NCBI GenBank assembly: GCA_027923505.1
Contig: BROI01000019.1
Span: 496,001 to 560,000 of the forward strand
Reading direction: 5' to 3'
From: Mayamaea pseudoterrestris
Taxonomy: Eukaryota
Length of the DNA: 64,000 bases
Both the position numbers and the translations under genes were made by a program. Of this stretch, positions 11,699 through 19,250 are shown piece by piece; the first letter of the stretch is position 1; every line of letters begins with the position of its first letter. The notes beneath the pieces are model-generated. The model was not told where the DNA came from, ran no database searches, and saw only the letters and a list, made by a program, of their open reading frames with translations.

Positions 11699-12817
11699 TT
11701 ACGTTTCCATTGCATTTGGTGTACGATTGGCGTTTCCAAACGGCGTTGTCATTTTGCCGGGAGTACGACCGAGACGAGACGGCGTCGTACCCTTTGTCGC
11801 CGCCGCCTTTGGTCCTGTCAGCAGTGCGAGGAGGGCACTGGCCTCATTTTCGTCATCGGTGCAAACCTTGGTCATTTCGCGGAGACGTTCCTCCAGTGTC
11901 GTCTTTGGTTTCTTGAACTGGCCAAGCAAGTAGACGCCATCAGTGTCCGTAGCAGACGTTGATCGCTTCGTGGAAAGTTCCTCCAAGAGCGCTTGGCCAT
12001 GATGAATCGAATCAATCAAGCGCGGCTGCTGCTCGACGACTCGTGCCACTGGTTGCACTATTTGTGATGGCGCATCACTCAACACCTTTTGCAATGACGC
12101 GGATGCGAACGACGCCAAGTCTTGGGCAGCCTCCCAGTCCTTGGTTGCCTGCTCCAGTGCAGCTCGCTGCTCGACGATGAGTGCGTATTGACGACGCATG
12201 TCCAGAATTTCCTGCTCGAGCGCAGTCACTTGCTCACTCGTCGGAACGTTGCACGACGACGGAAAGTCCAACTGCTCATCGTCATGATTCTCATCCAGTT
12301 CTGGTAGTTCCAATAGTTCAGGAATACATCCTTCCTTAAGCTCCTGGTGCAAACGCAACACTTCTTCGACGCGCGACGGTGCATGCTTGCGCAAGGTGAA
12401 AATGTTGCAGTCGCAGTAGGTTTCAAAGATGCGAACGTTTCTCATGAATTTTCGATGGAGCAGCTTCTTCATGACTTGCTGCTTGTTCAAGTCGAGGGCG
12501 GGCAGTGTGGAAACGCCCTGGTCAATGGCAGAATCAATGCAGCTTGCCAAGTGGTTGGTAATGTCAATGTTCATGGTATTAAAGAGAGTCTTGTCGGCCT
12601 CCATTGCAGCAGTTTCCGGCAAATCGCTATAAGAAGTGTACTTTGGTGCTCGCAGAGCCGATTTGGGCGCAGTTGGACTACTGCTGTTAGCATCCATGCC
12701 TTCGTTGCTCATCGCCATGGTCAACAAGTTGTCATGCAACGAGACGGTCGGACGACGGCGCAACCGTTGCAAGAGAAAGATACTGTCCCACCATGATCTA
12801 GTCTCGACAAAGCGCAT
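11699..12817 (-). CDS. Probable Mis12-family kinetochore protein; true start is probably the downstream MAMSNE
   Basis: DITN segment and FETYCDCNIFTL resemble the Mis12 F..FE.Y...NIF motif, followed by a coiled coil; TP-rich C-terminus. Confidence 0.55.
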   Translation of the reverse strand: MRFVETRSWWDSIFLLQRLRRRPTVSLHDNLLTMAMSNEGMDANSSSPTAPKSALRAPKYTSYSDLPETAAMEADKTLFNTMNIDITNHLASCIDSAIDQGVSTLPALDLNKQQVMKKLLHRKFMRNVRIFETYCDCNIFTLRKHAPSRVEEVLRLHQELKEGCIPELLELPELDENHDDEQLDFPSSCNVPTSEQVTALEQEILDMRRQYALIVEQRAALEQATKDWEAAQDLASFASASLQKVLSDAPSQIVQPVARVVEQQPRLIDSIHHGQALLEELSTKRSTSATDTDGVYLLGQFKKPKTTLEERLREMTKVCTDDENEASALLALLTGPKAAATKGTTPSRLGRTPGKMTTPFGNANRTPNAMET

Positions 12818-13266
12818 ATGAAAAGTGCCAAGTGCGCGCGTTTTCGCGACGCGCTCGACGATTCGAAGGATCTTCCATGAACTCGAAAGAGATCTTTGCT
12901 AAACCACCATTGTGGCTGCATACAATTGTTGATTCGAGCCATACTAAACGAGTCAGACACGACGAAAGCATCATGTAAGTTATAATGCACGATTAACTGG
13001 CAAGCGCTTCAAGAGACTTGCTGGAAAATGCTGTTTCCTTTCTTGCTTTACGTTGAGTCAGCGTTCATGCTTGGTCGTCGAGAGTTCGTTGGAACTCTGC
13101 CTGGTAATTGCTGATCATTTTTAGTTTGTTCGTTGATGGCATTATACGCTTGCGGTACTTGTCTAACGTTGACTTCATGCTCGCTTATATGCTTCCAATA
13201 GTACATTTGCTTGTCGTTGCCAATTCCATTCATTCATCAACACCACAAATCAACAACATCAACAAC

Positions 13267-14838
13267 ATGTCAAGCAACGACAATAGCAAAAAGTGCGACA
13301 TTGGCTTGTACGGCTTGGCCGTCATGGGCCAAAACTTTGCCCTCAACATGGCCGACCACGGCTTTTCCGTCTGCGTCAGCAACCGCACGCCCTCCAAGGT
13401 GGATGACACGCTCCAGCGCGCCAAGGCCGAGGGAGACTTGCCCATTGTCGGGGCCAAATCGCCGAAGGAGTTTTGCGCCAATTTGAGCAAACCGCGCAAG
13501 ATTGTTATTTTGGTGCAGGCGGGTAAACCAGTGGATGAAACGATTGAAAAGTTGGTGGAGTTCTTGGAGAAGGGTGATGTCATTATTGATGGCGGCAATG
13601 AGTGGTACCCCAATCAGATTCGTCGCCATGAGGAACTTGCGAAGAAGGGAATCATGTTTGTCGGCATGGGCATTTCGGGAGGAGAGGAAGGAGCCAGAAA
13701 TGGCCCAAGTCTCATGCCGGGTGGTCCAAAGGAGGCGTACGACATTATTGAGCCGATCATCACCAAGTGCGCCGCTCAGGTCAAGGGAGAAGCATGCACT
13801 GGATACTGCGGACCCATTGGAGCTGGAAACTATGTCAAGATGGTGCACAATGGCATTGAGTATGGCGATATGCAATTGATTAGCGAGGTTTACGACATTC
13901 TCAAGGTAAATAAGACGATCGATCGATCGATCCAATTTTTGTAAAAAGGAAAGCGACTTTAATCTTGTCTCGTTCCATCTACACAGAACGTTGTCGGCTT
14001 GAACAATGATGAAATGGCCAAGCTCTTTGAGAAATGGAACACTGGCGACCTTGACTCGTACTTGATCGAGATTACTACCAAGGTTCTTTCGAAAAAGGAC
14101 GACAAGTCGGACGATGGCAGTTACGTGGTGGACAAGATTCTCGACAAGACGGGCATGAAGGGAACTGGTCGCTGGACGGTGCAGGAAGCGGCCGAGCAAA
14201 GTGTTCCGGGATCCGTCATTGCAGCGGCACTTGACAGTCGCTACATTTCTGGTCGCAAGGATGAACGCGTCGAAGCATCCAAGGTTTTGAACGGGCCAAC
14301 GGATGAGCTCCAAAACATTGAAAAGGAGCAGATTATCAATGACTTGGAGTCGGCTTTATATGCGGCCAAGGTTACCTCGTATGCGCAGGGTATGAGCTTG
14401 ATCAAGGCTGCTTCCGACAAGCATAAATGGAACGTGGACTTGTCTCTGTGTGCAAGCATGTGGCGCGGTGGTTGCATTATTCGGGCGGCACTCTTGCACA
14501 AGATTACCGATGCGCTTGCCAAGAACAAGGACTTGACCAATCTGCTTCTTGACCCTGGCTTTTCCGCCGAAATGAATGATCGTCAAATGTCGTGGCGCCG
14601 GATTGTAACGCTTGGCGTTGCAAGTGGCATTGCTACGCCTGGATTCTCGGCTGGCTTGACCTACTACGACCAGTATCGCCGTGCTCGTCTTCCGGCTAAC
14701 TTAATTCAAGCGCAACGCGACTTTTTCGGCGGTCATACGTTCGAGCGCACGGACATGGAGGGAACGTTTCACGTCTTGTGGGACGAGTCGCACAAGGATA
14801 TTGGCGACTTGACGGGTCGACGAGCCGGTGAGCTCTAA
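13267..14838 (+). CDS. gnd: 6-phosphogluconate dehydrogenase, decarboxylating; exons 13267-13905, 13987-14838
   Basis: GLAVMGQN, IDGGNEWY, SGGEEGARNGPSLMPGG, KMVHNGIEYGDMQ, KGTGRWT, WRGGCIIR, QAQRDFFGGH. Confidence 0.98.
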
Positions 14839-14900: not shown

Positions 14901-15789
14901 TCAATCACCCTTCTTGTTTGACCTGCTCTTTACCATGAAATCGCCCCGCTCGTACGGACCATTCTCGGTTTCCCAAGCTTCGCACTCATCCGAAAACTCG
15001 TTCATTTCACACTTGCAAGAAGAAACATCAGTGAGTATACAGACGAATCTAACTGTTGAATGGTAATGCATTGTCACGCAACACACTTACTGGATTGATT
15101 TCACCAAACTGTTGACCTCCGGGATAGGAAATGACTCGCAGACTCTCAAAGCTGAGTGGTCCAATGCCATTGTCGTACTGAGTCAAGTCTCGTTCCTTTG
15201 GAACAGCGGCAATGAACTCGAACTGAATCTTCTTATCGGTCGATTTGATCAGCTCAATCATGGCGAACTGACCAGCATCCGTGTTTAAATCGGGGTTATT
15301 GGCCAGCACCGAGTCGCCCGATGCGCCATCTAGGACGAAACCGTAGACGCCAGCCTTGTCCATGTTTTTGGGCGGCGCTTCGAGCAAGTCGGCGTTGACT
15401 GTCACGCACAAGCCTCGCATGCCTTTCATTGCCTGCTGTCCTGGAATTGGCTTGTTGGGAGGACATGGCTGGGCCGTGTAACTGGTTGGTTTCATGGCAA
15501 TCTTGATGGGTCCAACGGCGTTGGCTTGTGTTGGACTTCCTGCTGATGTGGTTGCCACGGAAAGCACTGCTGCCGTTGTGGAAAGGAAAAAGTTGCGACG
15601 GTTCGCAACAGCAGATTGTGAATTTGATGCCAACTGTTCATGGCAGGCGAAACGCTGAAGCAATTTATCCTGCTTGTCATGTGATGCTTCAAGAAGATTC
15701 GACGAAGCTCGAGTCGAGGTGCGACTGAGTGGTTGAAAGGCAGAGCAAAGGAGTAGGCAGCAGAGTGATAGCAGGGAGAGACGAAACAT
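14901..15789 (-). CDS. Probable thylakoid-lumen protein of unknown function; exons 15789-15091, 15011-14901
   Basis: Signal peptide ending CSA-FQP, twin-arginine NRRNFF plus hydrophobic stretch and ANA cleavage site; GTAAGT...AAG intron gives INP-CEMNEF. Confidence 0.75.
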
Positions 15790-16202
15790 GGTCTTGAGGA
15801 TTAAGACAGAATTGAAGTTTAATTCTTTCGTTGTAGCGCTATTGTCACCTTCCTTGAAGTGTGGATATGCTCATGGTGATGGATGCAAATGAGGTGGAAA
15901 GCTGGATGCGTTCTGTCGGTCGCGGTGAGACTTTGAGAAAGTCGTAACGCGCGAGCACACGACTGCGACAACTTGCAATAATAGGCATAGGCAAGCAATC
16001 AAGCATCGTTTGCGAATACACTGGTTACAAAAGTGTAATGGTACGTATGTTAAAGTTGCTCGAGTATGAGATTCCAGCAAGCCTTGACTTACATGCAGGC
16101 AGCTCAGTCGGGTTAGGTGCAGAGCTACGTAGCACCCACTTTTACAATTAGATCAAAACATGAAACTGGATCACTATCTGCCAACCATTTAAGCAGTACC
16201 GC

Positions 16203-16961
16203 CTATCCGAAAGCAGCCTTGGCCATGTTGACATCCTCGTTGGATTTCTTGGTAGCCTTGCCGGTTTCCTTCCATGCCTTCTCGCGCTCATGCTGTTCCT
16301 TGCGGATTTCGGACTCAATCACTGCGGTTGCCATGTTGACATTCTTCAAGTCGCTCTTGGTAGTCTTGCCAGTCTCCTTCCAAGCCTTTTCGCGTTCATG
16401 CTGTTCCTTGCGAATCTCAGACTCAATGACGGCAGTCGCCATGTTGACGTCTTCGTTGGATTTCTTGGTGGCCTTGCCAGTCTCCTTCCAAGCCTTTTCA
16501 CGCTCGTGCTGTTCCTTGCGAATCTCATTCTCAATGACTGCCGTTGCCATGTTCACATTCTTCAAGTCACTCTTGGTAGACCGACCAGTCTCCTTCCAGT
16601 CTTTTTCGCGGCCATGCTGCTCCTTGCGAATCTCGCTCTCCGCAGTGTCGGTAATGTTGACATCCTTGAGGCTTGTCAAAGTGGCGCGGACCGTGTTCTT
16701 TTCGTTCTTCTCGCGATCAAAGTCGGCCTTTCTCGAGTTGGTTTCGGCAGTCTCGGTAATATTCACGTCCTTGAGGTTTGACTTGGTTGCCGTCTGGGTT
16801 GCCTTCCATCCCTTTTCACGGTCAAAGTCAGCCTTTCGTGAGTTCGTCTCGGCAGTCTCGGTAATGTTGACATTCTTGAGGTTGGCCTTTTCTTCGCGCA
16901 TTTTGGCCTTCATTGCATCCTTCTCCTTGTTCTTGTTCATAAAAAAGAGCATTTCCGCCAT
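16203..16961 (-). CDS. Hydrophilic protein of six 35/36-aa tandem repeats, intronless paralog
   Basis: Repeats of LKNVN(I/M)..A.E.EIRKEQHEREK.WKETG..TKS with synonymous third-position variation between units. Confidence 0.85.
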   Translation of the reverse strand: MAEMLFFMNKNKEKDAMKAKMREEKANLKNVNITETAETNSRKADFDREKGWKATQTATKSNLKDVNITETAETNSRKADFDREKNEKNTVRATLTSLKDVNITDTAESEIRKEQHGREKDWKETGRSTKSDLKNVNMATAVIENEIRKEQHEREKAWKETGKATKKSNEDVNMATAVIESEIRKEQHEREKAWKETGKTTKSDLKNVNMATAVIESEIRKEQHEREKAWKETGKATKKSNEDVNMAKAAFG

Positions 16962-17417
16962 GATTGCGCGTTGTTTCGATTAAAATAAAAGGAGCGAGAG
17001 AAGCAAATGTGTTAAAAGGCTCGAATGGGAGCTGTAGGACTATACTTGTGGACTTTCAGACAAGACACTCCTTAACGAAGGGCGGCTCGGTCGCTCATCG
17101 GCAACTGGATCTTGCTTCAGAATGACCATGACCGCATGTCCAGTAGTGTTCGGGTTAATGACCATGAAAATGACTTTGGATCGTGTTTGGTGTCGCTGAT
17201 GTGTCACAAGCGTCACCTTCAACGTGGCAGCGTCATCCTTCCGCCACTGCCCTCGACGGCGCGACGGAACAAAAACCACTCACACCTCCATCGAGTCGTC
17301 GTTGCTGCTGAAGCGGCGACTTTTCTACTCCATAACGAAGCAATTGCTGCCTTGACGACAGAGAAGTACGCGAAATCGCTTAATTCTATTGTATATATAA
17401 TCGAAAGACGCGAAATC

Positions 17418-18098
17418 ATGGCGGACTGGATGGTAAGTGCACTCAGAGTCTTTACGATCAGTCTCTTGAATGACCGACAAGCCTTCCAGCTGACATATGA
17501 TGCCTACAAATGCTACAGTTTTATATGAACAAGAACAAGGAGAAGGAGGCCATCAAAGCCAAGGAACGTGAGGAAAGGGCCAAACTGAAGAACGTTACTA
17601 TTACCGAGACTGCCGAAACGAGTGTCCGTAAGGAGCAGCATGAGCGCGAAAAGGGATGGAAGGAGACTGGTCGCTCAACAAAGAATGATTTGAAGAATAT
17701 TCTCATCACAGATACGGCAGAGACTGACATTCGGTAGGTTTATGGAGGTTCATTTGCTTGTCAGGCTCGTTCTGCATACTTAAAAGTTGACGAGTCGCTG
17801 CAGATTCGTTGCTCATCGCGGCACATCATCTGTACCAACATGGTCACAATGGCTCTGACTGACTGTTCCCTTCTACTTGTCCTATCACAGAAAGGCCCAA
17901 TTCCAGCAGGAGAAGGATTGGAAGGAGACTGGTCGCGCTACAAAGAGCGACTTGAAGAATGTCAACATGGCAACCGCTGTCATTGAGACTGAGATTCGAA
18001 AGGAGCAGCATGAACGTGAAAAGGCATGGAAAGAAACCAATAAAGCGACGAAAAAGTCGAATGAGGATGTCAACATGGCCAAGGCAGCGTTTGGGTAA
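17418..18098 (+). CDS. Hydrophilic protein of three 35/36-aa repeats; exons 17418-17432, 17519-17733, 17891-18098
   Basis: Splicing gives MADWMFYMNKNKEK...NEDVNMAKAAFG, colinear with the 16203-16961 protein; canonical GT-AG introns. Confidence 0.85.
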
Positions 18099-18380
18099 AG
18101 AAAAGGGCTGTCTGTTGATTGTTGGTGAAGCCTCGTCCGAGGCTGGTGTTGTATGTGAGTCAAATTGTTAGACTGGGATCGGACGTGTTATTAGATACAA
18201 AGGACAATAATCTTCTGTGTTAGCAATTACACTTGACTACATAATGTATATTCAGTCATACTATGTATACCAAATATGAGAAAGTCCTCTGGCAATCGCC
18301 ACGAAACCGCTGTGACGTTGTCACACAAATTCTTTGCAAATGCCGACCATGAACCATGACACTTCCACTTCGCCACCATC

Positions 18381-19250
18381 ATGACCGACCCACTTACCAA
18401 GTTGCCATTTTCTCCAGCTGCTCGAGCCTTTTTTGCAGCCCTTGACTTGAACCCGTCGTCGCAAACTGTCAATACGAGCAGCAGTCTCATCAAGAAACGC
18501 ATCTCGACACTTGGATGGCGCAATCGCTACAGTCAAGACGAAAGCTATCCAATCACTGTACATTCACGTCAATTTTCAGTCAGACAAGTCCAACGCGGCG
18601 AAATTGACGAAACGTATGGAACTGGAGCTACAGTTTGGCCGGCGGCTGTCGTCTTGATCAAGTATTTGGAGAAGCACCAGCAACTCGTGAAAGACAAGAT
18701 TGTCGTGGACCTTGGAGCCGGCACTGGCGTAACGAGTATTGCTGCGGCGATGCTTGGAGCAAAGCAGGTTGTCTGTACGGATGGAGAAGACAGCGTCGTC
18801 AGTCTAGCCAGAGACAATGTACGAAGCGCTCAGAAGCAATTGGAGGCACATCAGTGCGACAACATTATTTCGCCAGAATCGTCCATGCGAAGCGACTGCA
18901 TTCTGATTGACAACTGTCCGATTCATGTACAAAAGTACTGGTGGGGTAAAGATCGGCTGGATGAAGACACCATTGGTCGCGTTGATGTTGTTCTTGTCGC
19001 TGATTGCGTCTTGCCAAAGCTGTATCCCATTGGTCCCCTCGTCGATGCCATTGACCAGCTCCTAGTGTCGCCCGATGCGTTTGCTTTGTTGTCATATGAG
19101 CATCGCCATTTTGCCGAATATGATCCACGCGACAAGTTTAAAGAGCTGGCACTTGCAAAAAATCTACTACTGACTGTCATTTCAATGGAGGAGCAAGATT
19201 CGGTGTATTCGGTCGACGACATTGAATTATGGCGCGTGCAACGGAGATAA
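18381..19250 (+). CDS. METTL21-like (Methyltransf_16) protein-lysine methyltransferase
   Basis: TGATVWPAAVVL, VVDLGAGTG, CTD, WWG, VADCV. Confidence 0.9.
   Translation: MTDPLTKLPFSPAARAFFAALDLNPSSQTVNTSSSLIKKRISTLGWRNRYSQDESYPITVHSRQFSVRQVQRGEIDETYGTGATVWPAAVVLIKYLEKHQQLVKDKIVVDLGAGTGVTSIAAAMLGAKQVVCTDGEDSVVSLARDNVRSAQKQLEAHQCDNIISPESSMRSDCILIDNCPIHVQKYWWGKDRLDEDTIGRVDVVLVADCVLPKLYPIGPLVDAIDQLLVSPDAFALLSYEHRHFAEYDPRDKFKELALAKNLLLTVISMEEQDSVYSVDDIELWRVQRR

What the first reader, a model, noticed from the sequence alone, without database searches (positions are those of the whole stretch)
16203..18098. Head-to-head pair of unknown 35/36-residue tandem-repeat proteins
Two divergent paralogs 456 bp apart share the N-cap MA..(L/M)F(F/Y)MNKNKEK and the identical C-cap KKSNEDVNMAKAAFG, but carry 6 versus 3 repeats. 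In both, 35-aa 'ITET/ITDT' units precede 36-aa 'MATAVI' units. The proteins lack Cys and Pro, are highly charged, have a near-invariant Trp per repeat and no targeting peptide. I recognise no family. Inference: a length-variable helical ruler or filament-binding protein (helix + LKNV loosely recalls WH2/thymosin LKKT), or a LEA-like stress protectant, co-expressed from one bidirectional promoter.
Basis: partly seen in the sequence, partly recalled or inferred. Interest (0 to 1): 0.7.

Follow-up and report, generated by a model that had tools for sequence, protein, structure and literature searches.

The report
Undescribed diatom helical repeat protein pair
Two expressed, back-to-back diatom genes belong to an undescribed family of proteins built from 0 to 13 copies of a 35-38-residue unit, so far named only from gliding (raphid) diatoms; their design suggests they lie along a cytoskeletal filament, most plausibly actin, but that is untested.

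Summary
Gene A (16203-16961, minus, 252 aa) has 6 units; gene B (17418-18098, plus, 145 aa) has 3; the ATGs are 456 bp apart. Both introns of B are skipped in contigs of two runs that also cover A; 11 of 11 listed variants in A are synonymous. No curated Pfam, PDB or Atlas match. The genes belong to a family of about 220 retrieved sequences with 0-13 units, including two more candidate paralogs in this genome; all 8 members with a species name are raphid pennates. Each unit is an extended LKDV-containing segment plus a helix conserved on one face (period 3.6-3.7, 32 of 5000 shuffles), which points to a conserved partner rather than a LEA-type shield. The 35-38 period and a V-x2-A-x3-F-E core resemble F-actin side-binders (cortactin, Xin, SFM), but strict WH2, thymosin, Xin and SFM motifs fail. 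Best guess: a filament side-binder, actin about 35%.

The parts
16203..16961 (-). Gene A, single-exon CDS, 252 aa: N-cap + 6 units + C-cap
   Evidence: covered by contigs of X3 and X4 (16007-16358, 16329-17040); 11 of 11 listed variants synonymous
16881..16961 (-). Gene A N-cap (residues 1-27)
   Evidence: conserved in the family
16566..16880 (-). Gene A units 1-3, 35 aa each (ITET/ITDT type)
   Evidence: (family D2, 105-nt spacing)
16242..16565 (-). Gene A units 4-6, 36 aa each (NMA type)
   Evidence: (family D1, 108-nt spacing)
16203..16241 (-). Gene A C-cap (residues 241-252 and stop): the first residues of a further unit, ending just after the conserved Phe
16962..17417 (.). 456-bp spacer between the two start codons (5' UTRs and presumed shared promoter region)
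   Evidence: no homology between the two halves except the start contexts
16954..16971 (-). 18-nt start context of A, 94% complementary to that of B (17408-17425): trace of an inverted duplication
   Evidence: pair I21
17418..17432 (+). Gene B exon 1 (5 codons)
17433..17518 (+). Gene B intron 1, 86 nt, GT-AG
   Evidence: skipped in contigs of X3 and X4, not in X1 or X2
17519..17733 (+). Gene B exon 2: N-cap, unit 1, start of unit 2
17734..17890 (+). Gene B intron 2, 157 nt, GT-AG
   Evidence: skipped in contigs of X3 and X4, not in X1 or X2
17891..18098 (+). Gene B exon 3: rest of unit 2, unit 3 (36 aa), C-cap, stop

Best explanation
Genes A and B encode soluble, probably cytosolic, non-globular proteins that are chains of one binding module. 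Shown: each 35-38-residue unit has an extended, beta-branched-rich segment (LKDV followed by xITETVE or NMAxAxFE) and a helix of about 22 residues whose conserved residues lie on one face; the caps are partial copies of the same unit; unit number varies from 0 to 13. Inferred: the module docks on a conserved partner, and tandem units dock on successive subunits of a polymer. Most likely polymer: F-actin, one unit per subunit along a long-pitch strand (a 37-residue cortactin repeat spans about 5.5 nm), the hydrophobic V-x2-A-x3-F/I-E core taking the subdomain 1/3 cleft as the SFM/Lifeact and Xin motifs do. Unit number would then tune avidity, and the proteins would stabilise or mark long-lived actin, such as the raphe bundles used for gliding. 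The head-to-head pair is an inverted duplication whose copies gained or lost units; shared regulation is plausible but not shown.
For: Unit spacing in the family 35 (137), 36 (32), 38 (17) of 199 intervals; cortactin's 37-residue repeat bridges successive actin subunits over about 5.5 nm and repeat number tunes affinity (PMC11102864, passages). Conservation oscillates with period 3.6-3.7 over residues 214-238 (32 of 5000 shuffles reach it; first helix 138 of 5000). Protein conserved while silent sites diverge: 57 of 62 C-terminal residues identical between A and B, but only 29 of 53 codons; the Seminavis member Sro128_g061380 is a core gene with piN/piS 0.067 (PMC7335047 source data). In 37 unique internal NMA units, P1/P4/P8/P9 read V-A-F-E in 14, V-A-I-E in 9, V-A-V-E in 7; SFM is VxxLxxxFE with P1 and P8 essential (PMC13364712, sections 6, 7); Xin consensus has DV-x6-FET (PMC2478706, passage), found 10 times in 229 sequences (0.06 in shuffles). 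8 of 8 species-named members are raphid pennates, the group with raphe actin bundles that show no directional subunit turnover (PMC11420354, passages). No heptad or 11-mer periodicity.
Against: No HMM support for any actin-binding family: WH2, Thymosin, HS1_rep, Xin or Nebulin never appear in the Pfam tables shown (one search shows 25 of 47 families), and family profiles find nothing in the PDB sequences better than E 0.12. Strict SFM (VxxLxxxFE) and strict Xin motifs: 0 in 229 sequences; genes A and B themselves have Ile, not Phe, at P8 of their internal units and Gly at P9 of the C-cap, and the commoner 35-residue unit is one residue short of the SFM spacing. Motif counts are inflated by relatedness. 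A 35-38 period is not specific to actin. About 220 of the 229 sequences carry no species name, and no named species falls in the subfamily of A and B. Sro128_g061380 is not among the 1,069 rows of pennate/raphid/benthic signature genes of PMC7335047. Whether this genome is itself a raphid was not tested.
Confidence: 0.35

Rival explanations
1. Side-binder of another polymer (microtubules), or a self-assembling coiled-coil or filament protein; the acidic tails of some members would act like tubulin-tail mimics or spacers.
For: Same one-face conservation and tandem design; slightly basic (pI 9.2-9.3); 17 of 90 full-length members end in a D/E-rich tail; AlphaFold2 gives long continuous helices.
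Against: No heptad signal (power 5.0 at 3.5 and 4.6 at 7, against 115 at 35.5-36); no Pfam microtubule-binding repeat among hits shown; pTM 0.26 and 0.47 mean the long helix is not a trusted fold.
Confidence: 0.18
2. Beta-thymosin/WH2-like multimeric actin-monomer buffer: helix, LK-D/N-V, a TET-x-E-x-N stretch and a second helix per unit.
For: LK[DN][VI] 222 times and TETxExN 77 times in 229 sequences (1.8 and 0.08 in shuffles); the order helix - LKxV - TETxExN - helix recalls thymosin (LKKTET seen in the abstract of PMC3284464, search listing; the continuation is recalled).
Against: Third motif position is acidic or Asn, three extra residues separate LK from TET, and the preceding helix has Thr/Gly where WH2 has large hydrophobic residues (WH2 positions from PMC13364712 passage); canonical L[KR][KR][TVA] is depleted; no Pfam hit.
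Confidence: 0.1
3. Scaffold for EF-hand proteins (calmodulin, centrin, myosin light chains), one per unit, in the manner of IQ or Sfi1 repeats.
For: Hydrophobic-E-x3-R-(K/G)-x4-R-x3-W on one helix face loosely follows the recalled IQ pattern; W-K pair as in recalled Sfi1 repeats.
Against: The IQ Gln position is Glu in 93% and the second Arg is one residue late; no IQ or Sfi1 Pfam hit among those shown; Trp is only 53% conserved in 35-residue units.
Confidence: 0.1
4. LEA-like or hydrophilin stress protectant that folds into amphipathic helices on drying or freezing.
For: Very hydrophilic, no Cys, Pro-free, no signal stretch; variable repeat number.
Against: Gly 2.8% (recalled hydrophilin criterion above 6%); no 11-residue periodicity (power 2.8 at 11, 0.2 at 11.67); near-invariant E/R/R/K across several diatom orders and piN/piS 0.067 are unusual for generic shields; no LEA Pfam hit among those shown; members include planktonic marine species.
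Confidence: 0.1

Closest known systems
Cortactin/HS1 repeats (Pfam HS1_rep PF02218; PMC11102864)
   Same: Tandem, non-globular repeats of nearly the same length (37 versus 35-38), variable number among paralogs; a half repeat at the end
   Different: No HMM similarity; predicted helical rather than Gly-rich; no NtA or SH3 domain
Short linear F-actin-binding motif, SFM (Lifeact, ITPKA/F-tractin; PMC13364712)
   Same: V at P1, F (or I/V) at P8 and E at P9 in the 36-residue units; F/V at P1 and F at P8 in the C-cap
   Different: P4 is Ala, not Leu; genes A and B have Ile at P8 internally; the 35-residue units are one residue short; SFM tandem arrays with a fixed 35-38 period are not described in the sections read
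Xin actin-binding repeat (consensus in PMC2478706)
   Same: D-V-x6-F-E-T spacing in 10 family units
   Different: No W-L before FET, no PLD; period 35-38 with a long helix; Xin arose in chordates per that paper, so any likeness would be convergent
Beta-thymosin / WH2 (Pfam PF01290, PF02205)
   Same: Helix followed by LK-x-V; TET-x-E-x-N stretch
   Different: Acidic third position, three-residue insertion, no amphipathic L/I helix, no HMM hit
Nebulin repeat (35 residues, recalled)
   Same: Period of 35; length-variable chain suggests a ruler
   Different: No nebulin Pfam hit among those shown; the recalled SDxxYK hallmark is not in the consensus; chains of 0-13 units are far shorter
Group 3 LEA proteins / hydrophilins (criteria recalled)
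   Same: Hydrophilic, charged, helix-prone repeats
   Different: No 11-mer period, low Gly, strict sequence conservation

Membership tests
WH2 / beta-thymosin | Match to Pfam WH2 (PF02205) or Thymosin (PF01290) | tested here: not met
   Absent from the tables shown; genome searches with both models found no candidate (controls uninformative)
WH2 / beta-thymosin | Basic LKKT/LRRV-type motif | tested here: not met
   L[KR][KR][TVA] 3 in 229 sequences versus 11.3 in shuffles; family has LK[DN][VI]
WH2 / beta-thymosin | Amphipathic helix with large hydrophobics at P1/P4/P5/P8 before the motif | tested here: not met
   Positions carry W/E, T, G/R, T/Q
WH2 / beta-thymosin | Binds G-actin | not testable with these tools
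   needs a binding assay
SFM (VxxLxxxFE) | V at P1 and F at P8 | tested here: inconclusive
   V..F in 14 of 37 unique internal NMA units, I or V at P8 in 16; C-caps of A and B have V and F; their internal units have I at P8
SFM (VxxLxxxFE) | L at P4 with E at P9 | tested here: not met
   Strict motif 0 in 229 sequences; P4 is Ala (note that the pattern selected on A/S at P4)
SFM (VxxLxxxFE) | F-actin binding lost on P1/P8 mutation | not testable with these tools
   needs co-sedimentation or imaging
Xin repeat | GDV(K/Q/R/S)XX(R/K/T)WLFET...PLD consensus | tested here: not met
   0 strict matches; only the DV-x6-FET spacing, 10 times
Cortactin/HS1 repeat | Match to HS1_rep (PF02218) or to cortactin chains in the PDB | tested here: not met
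Cortactin/HS1 repeat | Period of about 37 residues | tested here: met
   35-38
Nebulin repeat | 35-residue period with SDxxYK (recalled) | tested here: not met
   Period met, hallmark absent from the consensus
LEA group 3 / hydrophilin | 11-mer periodicity; Gly above 6% (recalled) | tested here: not met
LEA group 3 / hydrophilin | Induced by water stress | not testable with these tools
   No expression levels available; the Seminavis gene id was not found in the supplements of three transcriptome papers
IQ / Sfi1 EF-hand-binding repeats | Q-x3-R-G-x3-R (IQ) or LL-x3-F-x2-W-K (Sfi1), both recalled | tested here: not met
   E replaces Q, second R shifted by one, no LL/F before W

The most novel reading that the evidence does not exclude
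The family is a raphid-diatom invention that lines and stabilises the raphe-associated actin bundles, the static track for gliding myosins: a convergent, independently evolved counterpart of cortactin, nebulin or Xin with a new actin-binding repeat, whose unit number (0-13) tunes grip or span.
Probability: 0.2. Interest if true: 0.8.

Novelty: new variant of a known kind. Interest (0 to 1): 0.52.

Why it matters
The molecular make-up of the diatom gliding apparatus is largely open: the raphe actin bundles show no directional turnover and their architecture is called unknown in PMC11420354 (passages read). A small, conserved, multi-copy family named only from raphid diatoms and shaped like a filament side-binder gives a concrete candidate that can be tested in transformable species (GFP fusion, knock-out, co-sedimentation). 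If it binds actin it adds a new actin-binding repeat and possibly a diatom F-actin probe. If not, it remains an undescribed, strongly conserved diatom repeat family that deserves a profile.

Tried and rejected
Complex prediction of a full-length diatom actin (P0288) with the last 67 residues of gene A: no answer, ipSAE 0.02 in two runs against a mark of 0.34, alignments not used, partner fold uncertain, controls not folded; the tool states this is no evidence either way. The look-up of sequencing runs: no RNA holder listed by record; X3 and X4 are taken as RNA only because their contigs skip introns; parts without cover in these runs were not used. ESM Atlas: no usable hit for P0001 or P0143, low recognition. 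PDB sequence searches: 0 hits for P0001 and A2; ZapA E 0.12 and an RNase E 0.58 for A4; ribosomal L9 E 1.1 for A5; all taken as composition noise. Seven long hits (P0065, P0093, P0097, P0120, P0125, P0126, P0128) were dropped as unrelated repeats (WD40/HEAT/TPR/fn3/ARID etc.) before all family counts. Pfam hits below cut-off (DUF1414, TMP_2, DUF3896, SHOCT_2) rejected. Genome searches with Thymosin, HS1_rep and WH2 models: no candidate, but the controls are prokaryotes, so absence is not shown. AlphaFold2 models are single long helices with low pTM; no fold search was run on them. i+3/i+4 charge pairing only marginal (96 of 2000 shuffles), so a stable single alpha-helix was not adopted. The bacterial promoter/terminator scan is irrelevant for a eukaryote. 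Conservation of the head-to-head layout: the metagenome scan gave 5 loci, each with one family gene and mostly too short to judge. Literature: accession ids of the Nitzschia and Seminavis members in no main text; topic searches showed no description of this family in their listings; subscription journals and bioRxiv supplements were not searchable and may hold expression or proteomic data. PMC4710849 (passages) gave nothing. A search for longer, fused forms with the profile was not run; the phmmer search over all lengths showed none.

Full report
What is there. The window is contig C19:496001-560000 of a 30.6-Mb, 41-contig genome; its actin is 96-99% identical to a group of actins that includes named diatom ones, so it is taken as a diatom. 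Gene A is a single-exon ORF of 252 aa at 16203-16961 on the minus strand. Gene B starts at 17418 on the plus strand, 456 bp away, and gives 145 aa after removal of two GT-AG introns, 17433-17518 and 17734-17890. Cut at the LKxV-type motif, A has a 27-residue N-cap, units of 35, 35, 35, 36, 36, 36 and a 12-residue C-cap; B has the same caps and units of 35, 35, 36. Neither has Cys or Pro; A is 41% charged with 2.8% Gly and has no hydrophobic 19-mer.

The genes are real. Of four runs laid (one study, at most three samples), X3 and X4 each have a contig that skips both predicted introns of B, and both cover A; X1 and X2 carry the unspliced form. The runs' kind is not on record; RNA is inferred from the joints. 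Contigs give no levels or start sites, so co-expression is not shown. All 11 base variants listed inside A are third-position and synonymous (the table showed 40 rows and withheld 26; X2 alone also shows single-base gaps in one contig each). The last 62 residues of A and B are 57 identical, yet only 29 of 53 comparable codons are the same: selection on the protein, not recent conversion. An 18-nt match around the two ATGs and a weakly supported sister position in a tree of 43 rows (88/0) fit an inverted duplication followed by gain or loss of units.

The family. phmmer gave 21 hits and 90 hits among 50%-cluster representatives, of which 7 long ones were dropped as unrelated; a profile gave 110 hits. 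With cluster members the working set is 229 different sequences, many of them fragments or mis-called genes. Of 90 with both caps, 11 have one unit, 38 two, 35 three, 5 four and 1 six; 17 end in an acidic tail. A metagenome locus encodes 13 units (L032). This genome has two further candidate paralogs: a one-unit gene on C25 (L022) and a zero-unit form with an N-terminal extension on C9 (L016); their expression was not checked. The tree separates three groups: the group of A and B (90/92), one with the FDFKAPE extension (98/90) and one starting MAELMFG (96/95) (only 73 columns). Eight members carry a species name: Cylindrotheca fusiformis, C. closterium, Nitzschia inconspicua, Nitzschia sp. Nitz4, Pseudo-nitzschia heimii, Fragilariopsis kerguelensis, Seminavis robusta and Stauroneis constricta, all raphid pennates. 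The collection does hold centric diatoms (Discostella actin), and the part of the MMETSP table seen lists 18 raphid entries in a set of 88 diatoms. Against a firm claim: most sequences are unnamed, none of the named ones is in the group of A and B, and the Seminavis member is absent from the published list of pennate/raphid/benthic signature genes, although it is a core gene with piN/piS 0.067.

No known family. Pfam scans of A, the exons of B and family members gave nothing over a curated cut-off; PDB sequence searches with A and three profiles gave nothing better than E 0.12; the ESM Atlas gave no usable hit. The scan's own notes hold no look-alike (one search listed eight unrelated findings). 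Ten paper searches showed no description of the family.

Anatomy of the unit. Anchor spacings are 35 (137), 36 (32) and 38 (17) of 199. The first third of the unit is rich in V, I, T, D with low helix propensity; the rest is helix-prone. In an 84-row alignment (45.7 effective at 80%), E216, R220, R226 and K231 are 93, 100, 91 and 90% conserved, while every third or fourth column is free; conservation oscillates at 3.6-3.7 residues (32 of 5000 shuffles for residues 214-238; 138 and 364 of 5000 for two other helical windows; none in the linker; four windows tested, uncorrected). Hydropathy shows no heptad or 11-mer period. AlphaFold2 draws one long helix with pLDDT 75-86 but pTM 0.26-0.47, so there is no globular fold. 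The C-cap is the start of one more unit, ending just after a Phe that is 97% conserved. Inference: a chain of identical docking sites for one conserved partner surface.

Which partner. A period of 35-38 residues is what a chain needs to step from one actin subunit to the next: a 37-residue cortactin repeat spans about 5.5 nm over two successive subunits, and fewer repeats mean lower affinity (PMC11102864, passages); nebulin's 35 is recalled. The 36-residue unit opens with V-x2-A-x3-(F/I/V)-E in 30 of 37 unique cases, the spacing of the F-actin motif VxxLxxxFE, in which P1 and P8 are essential (PMC13364712; outline, sections 6, 7, 8, 11, 12 and passages read), and of the Xin consensus (PMC2478706, passage). 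Raphid diatoms glide on two actin bundles that show no directional turnover, and many diatoms lack profilin and Arp2/3 (PMC11420354, passages). These are resemblances, not membership: the strict SFM, Xin and thymosin patterns score 0 and the basic WH2 motif is depleted; A and B have Ile at P8 internally; the majority 35-residue unit does not fit the SFM spacing. I put F-actin side-binding at 0.35, another polymer or self-assembly at 0.18, thymosin-like monomer binding, EF-hand scaffolding and LEA-like protection at 0.10 each, and the remainder on unlisted partners.

Neighbourhood. The flanks hold 6-phosphogluconate dehydrogenase, a protein with a plastid-type leader, and a Methyltransf_16 lysine methyltransferase; none is seen beside the family gene in L032, the only related locus long enough to look at (ORFs read by eye), so the neighbours are not treated as part of the system.

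Verdict. A real, spliced and conserved gene pair of a family that I could not find described; function inferred only. It is filed under no known family. It most plausibly works like tandem-repeat filament side-binders. Interest 0.52; the boldest reading, a raphid-specific stabiliser of the gliding track, has about 0.2 probability and would merit 0.8. Supplements of bioRxiv preprints on Seminavis expression were closed and may bear on the expression and distribution claims; PMC8027222, PMC12618581 and PMC7296067 were seen only through supplement searches that found nothing, PMC7335047 through passages, part of section 9 and its source-data file, which is cut.

Noticed in passing
L016:1474-1722 (-) = G000:C9:733813-734061: Candidate zero-unit family member: N-terminal extension and N-cap run straight into a C-cap-like end; 83 codons. 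It suggests the caps alone form a working module; an intron or further exon was not excluded.
   Followed up: partly
L022:1310-1716 (+) = G000:C25, about 354390-354800: One-unit paralog with an intron after codon 10, close to the unnamed 75-aa protein P0127.
   Followed up: partly
L032:430-2277 (+): Metagenome contig with a 13-unit member mixing 35- and 36-residue units.
   Followed up: partly
window 16914 to 18381: One contig of run X1 joins 16914 to 18381 (40 letters on the short side), and X2 and X4 have a loose end at 18381; possibly a divergent second haplotype or a repeat upstream of the methyltransferase gene. Unexplained.
   Followed up: no
window 18381-19250 (+): Methyltransf_16 lysine methyltransferase gene 282 bp downstream of gene B; any link to the Lys-rich repeats is speculation.
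   Followed up: no
window 15049-15789 (-): Protein with a signal-peptide-like start and a twin-arginine stretch (plastid/thylakoid-type leader, read by eye), no Pfam family; X4 skips 79 nt at about 15012-15091, so its true C-terminus differs from the ORF.
   Followed up: no
window 13177-14838 (+): 6-phosphogluconate dehydrogenase in two exons.
   Followed up: no
window 11699-12817 (-): 372-aa ORF with a weak Mis12 match (E 0.007, below cut-off): possible kinetochore protein.
   Followed up: no
G000:C2:502317-503641 and 522156-523480: Two actin-related genes with identical scores 20 kb apart; L009 also holds a fragment that looks by eye like a copia-type retrotransposon remnant.
   Followed up: no
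P0193: Family C-terminus joined to a cyclophilin domain (PF00160) on a single 1,083-bp contig; most likely a chimeric assembly.
   Followed up: no
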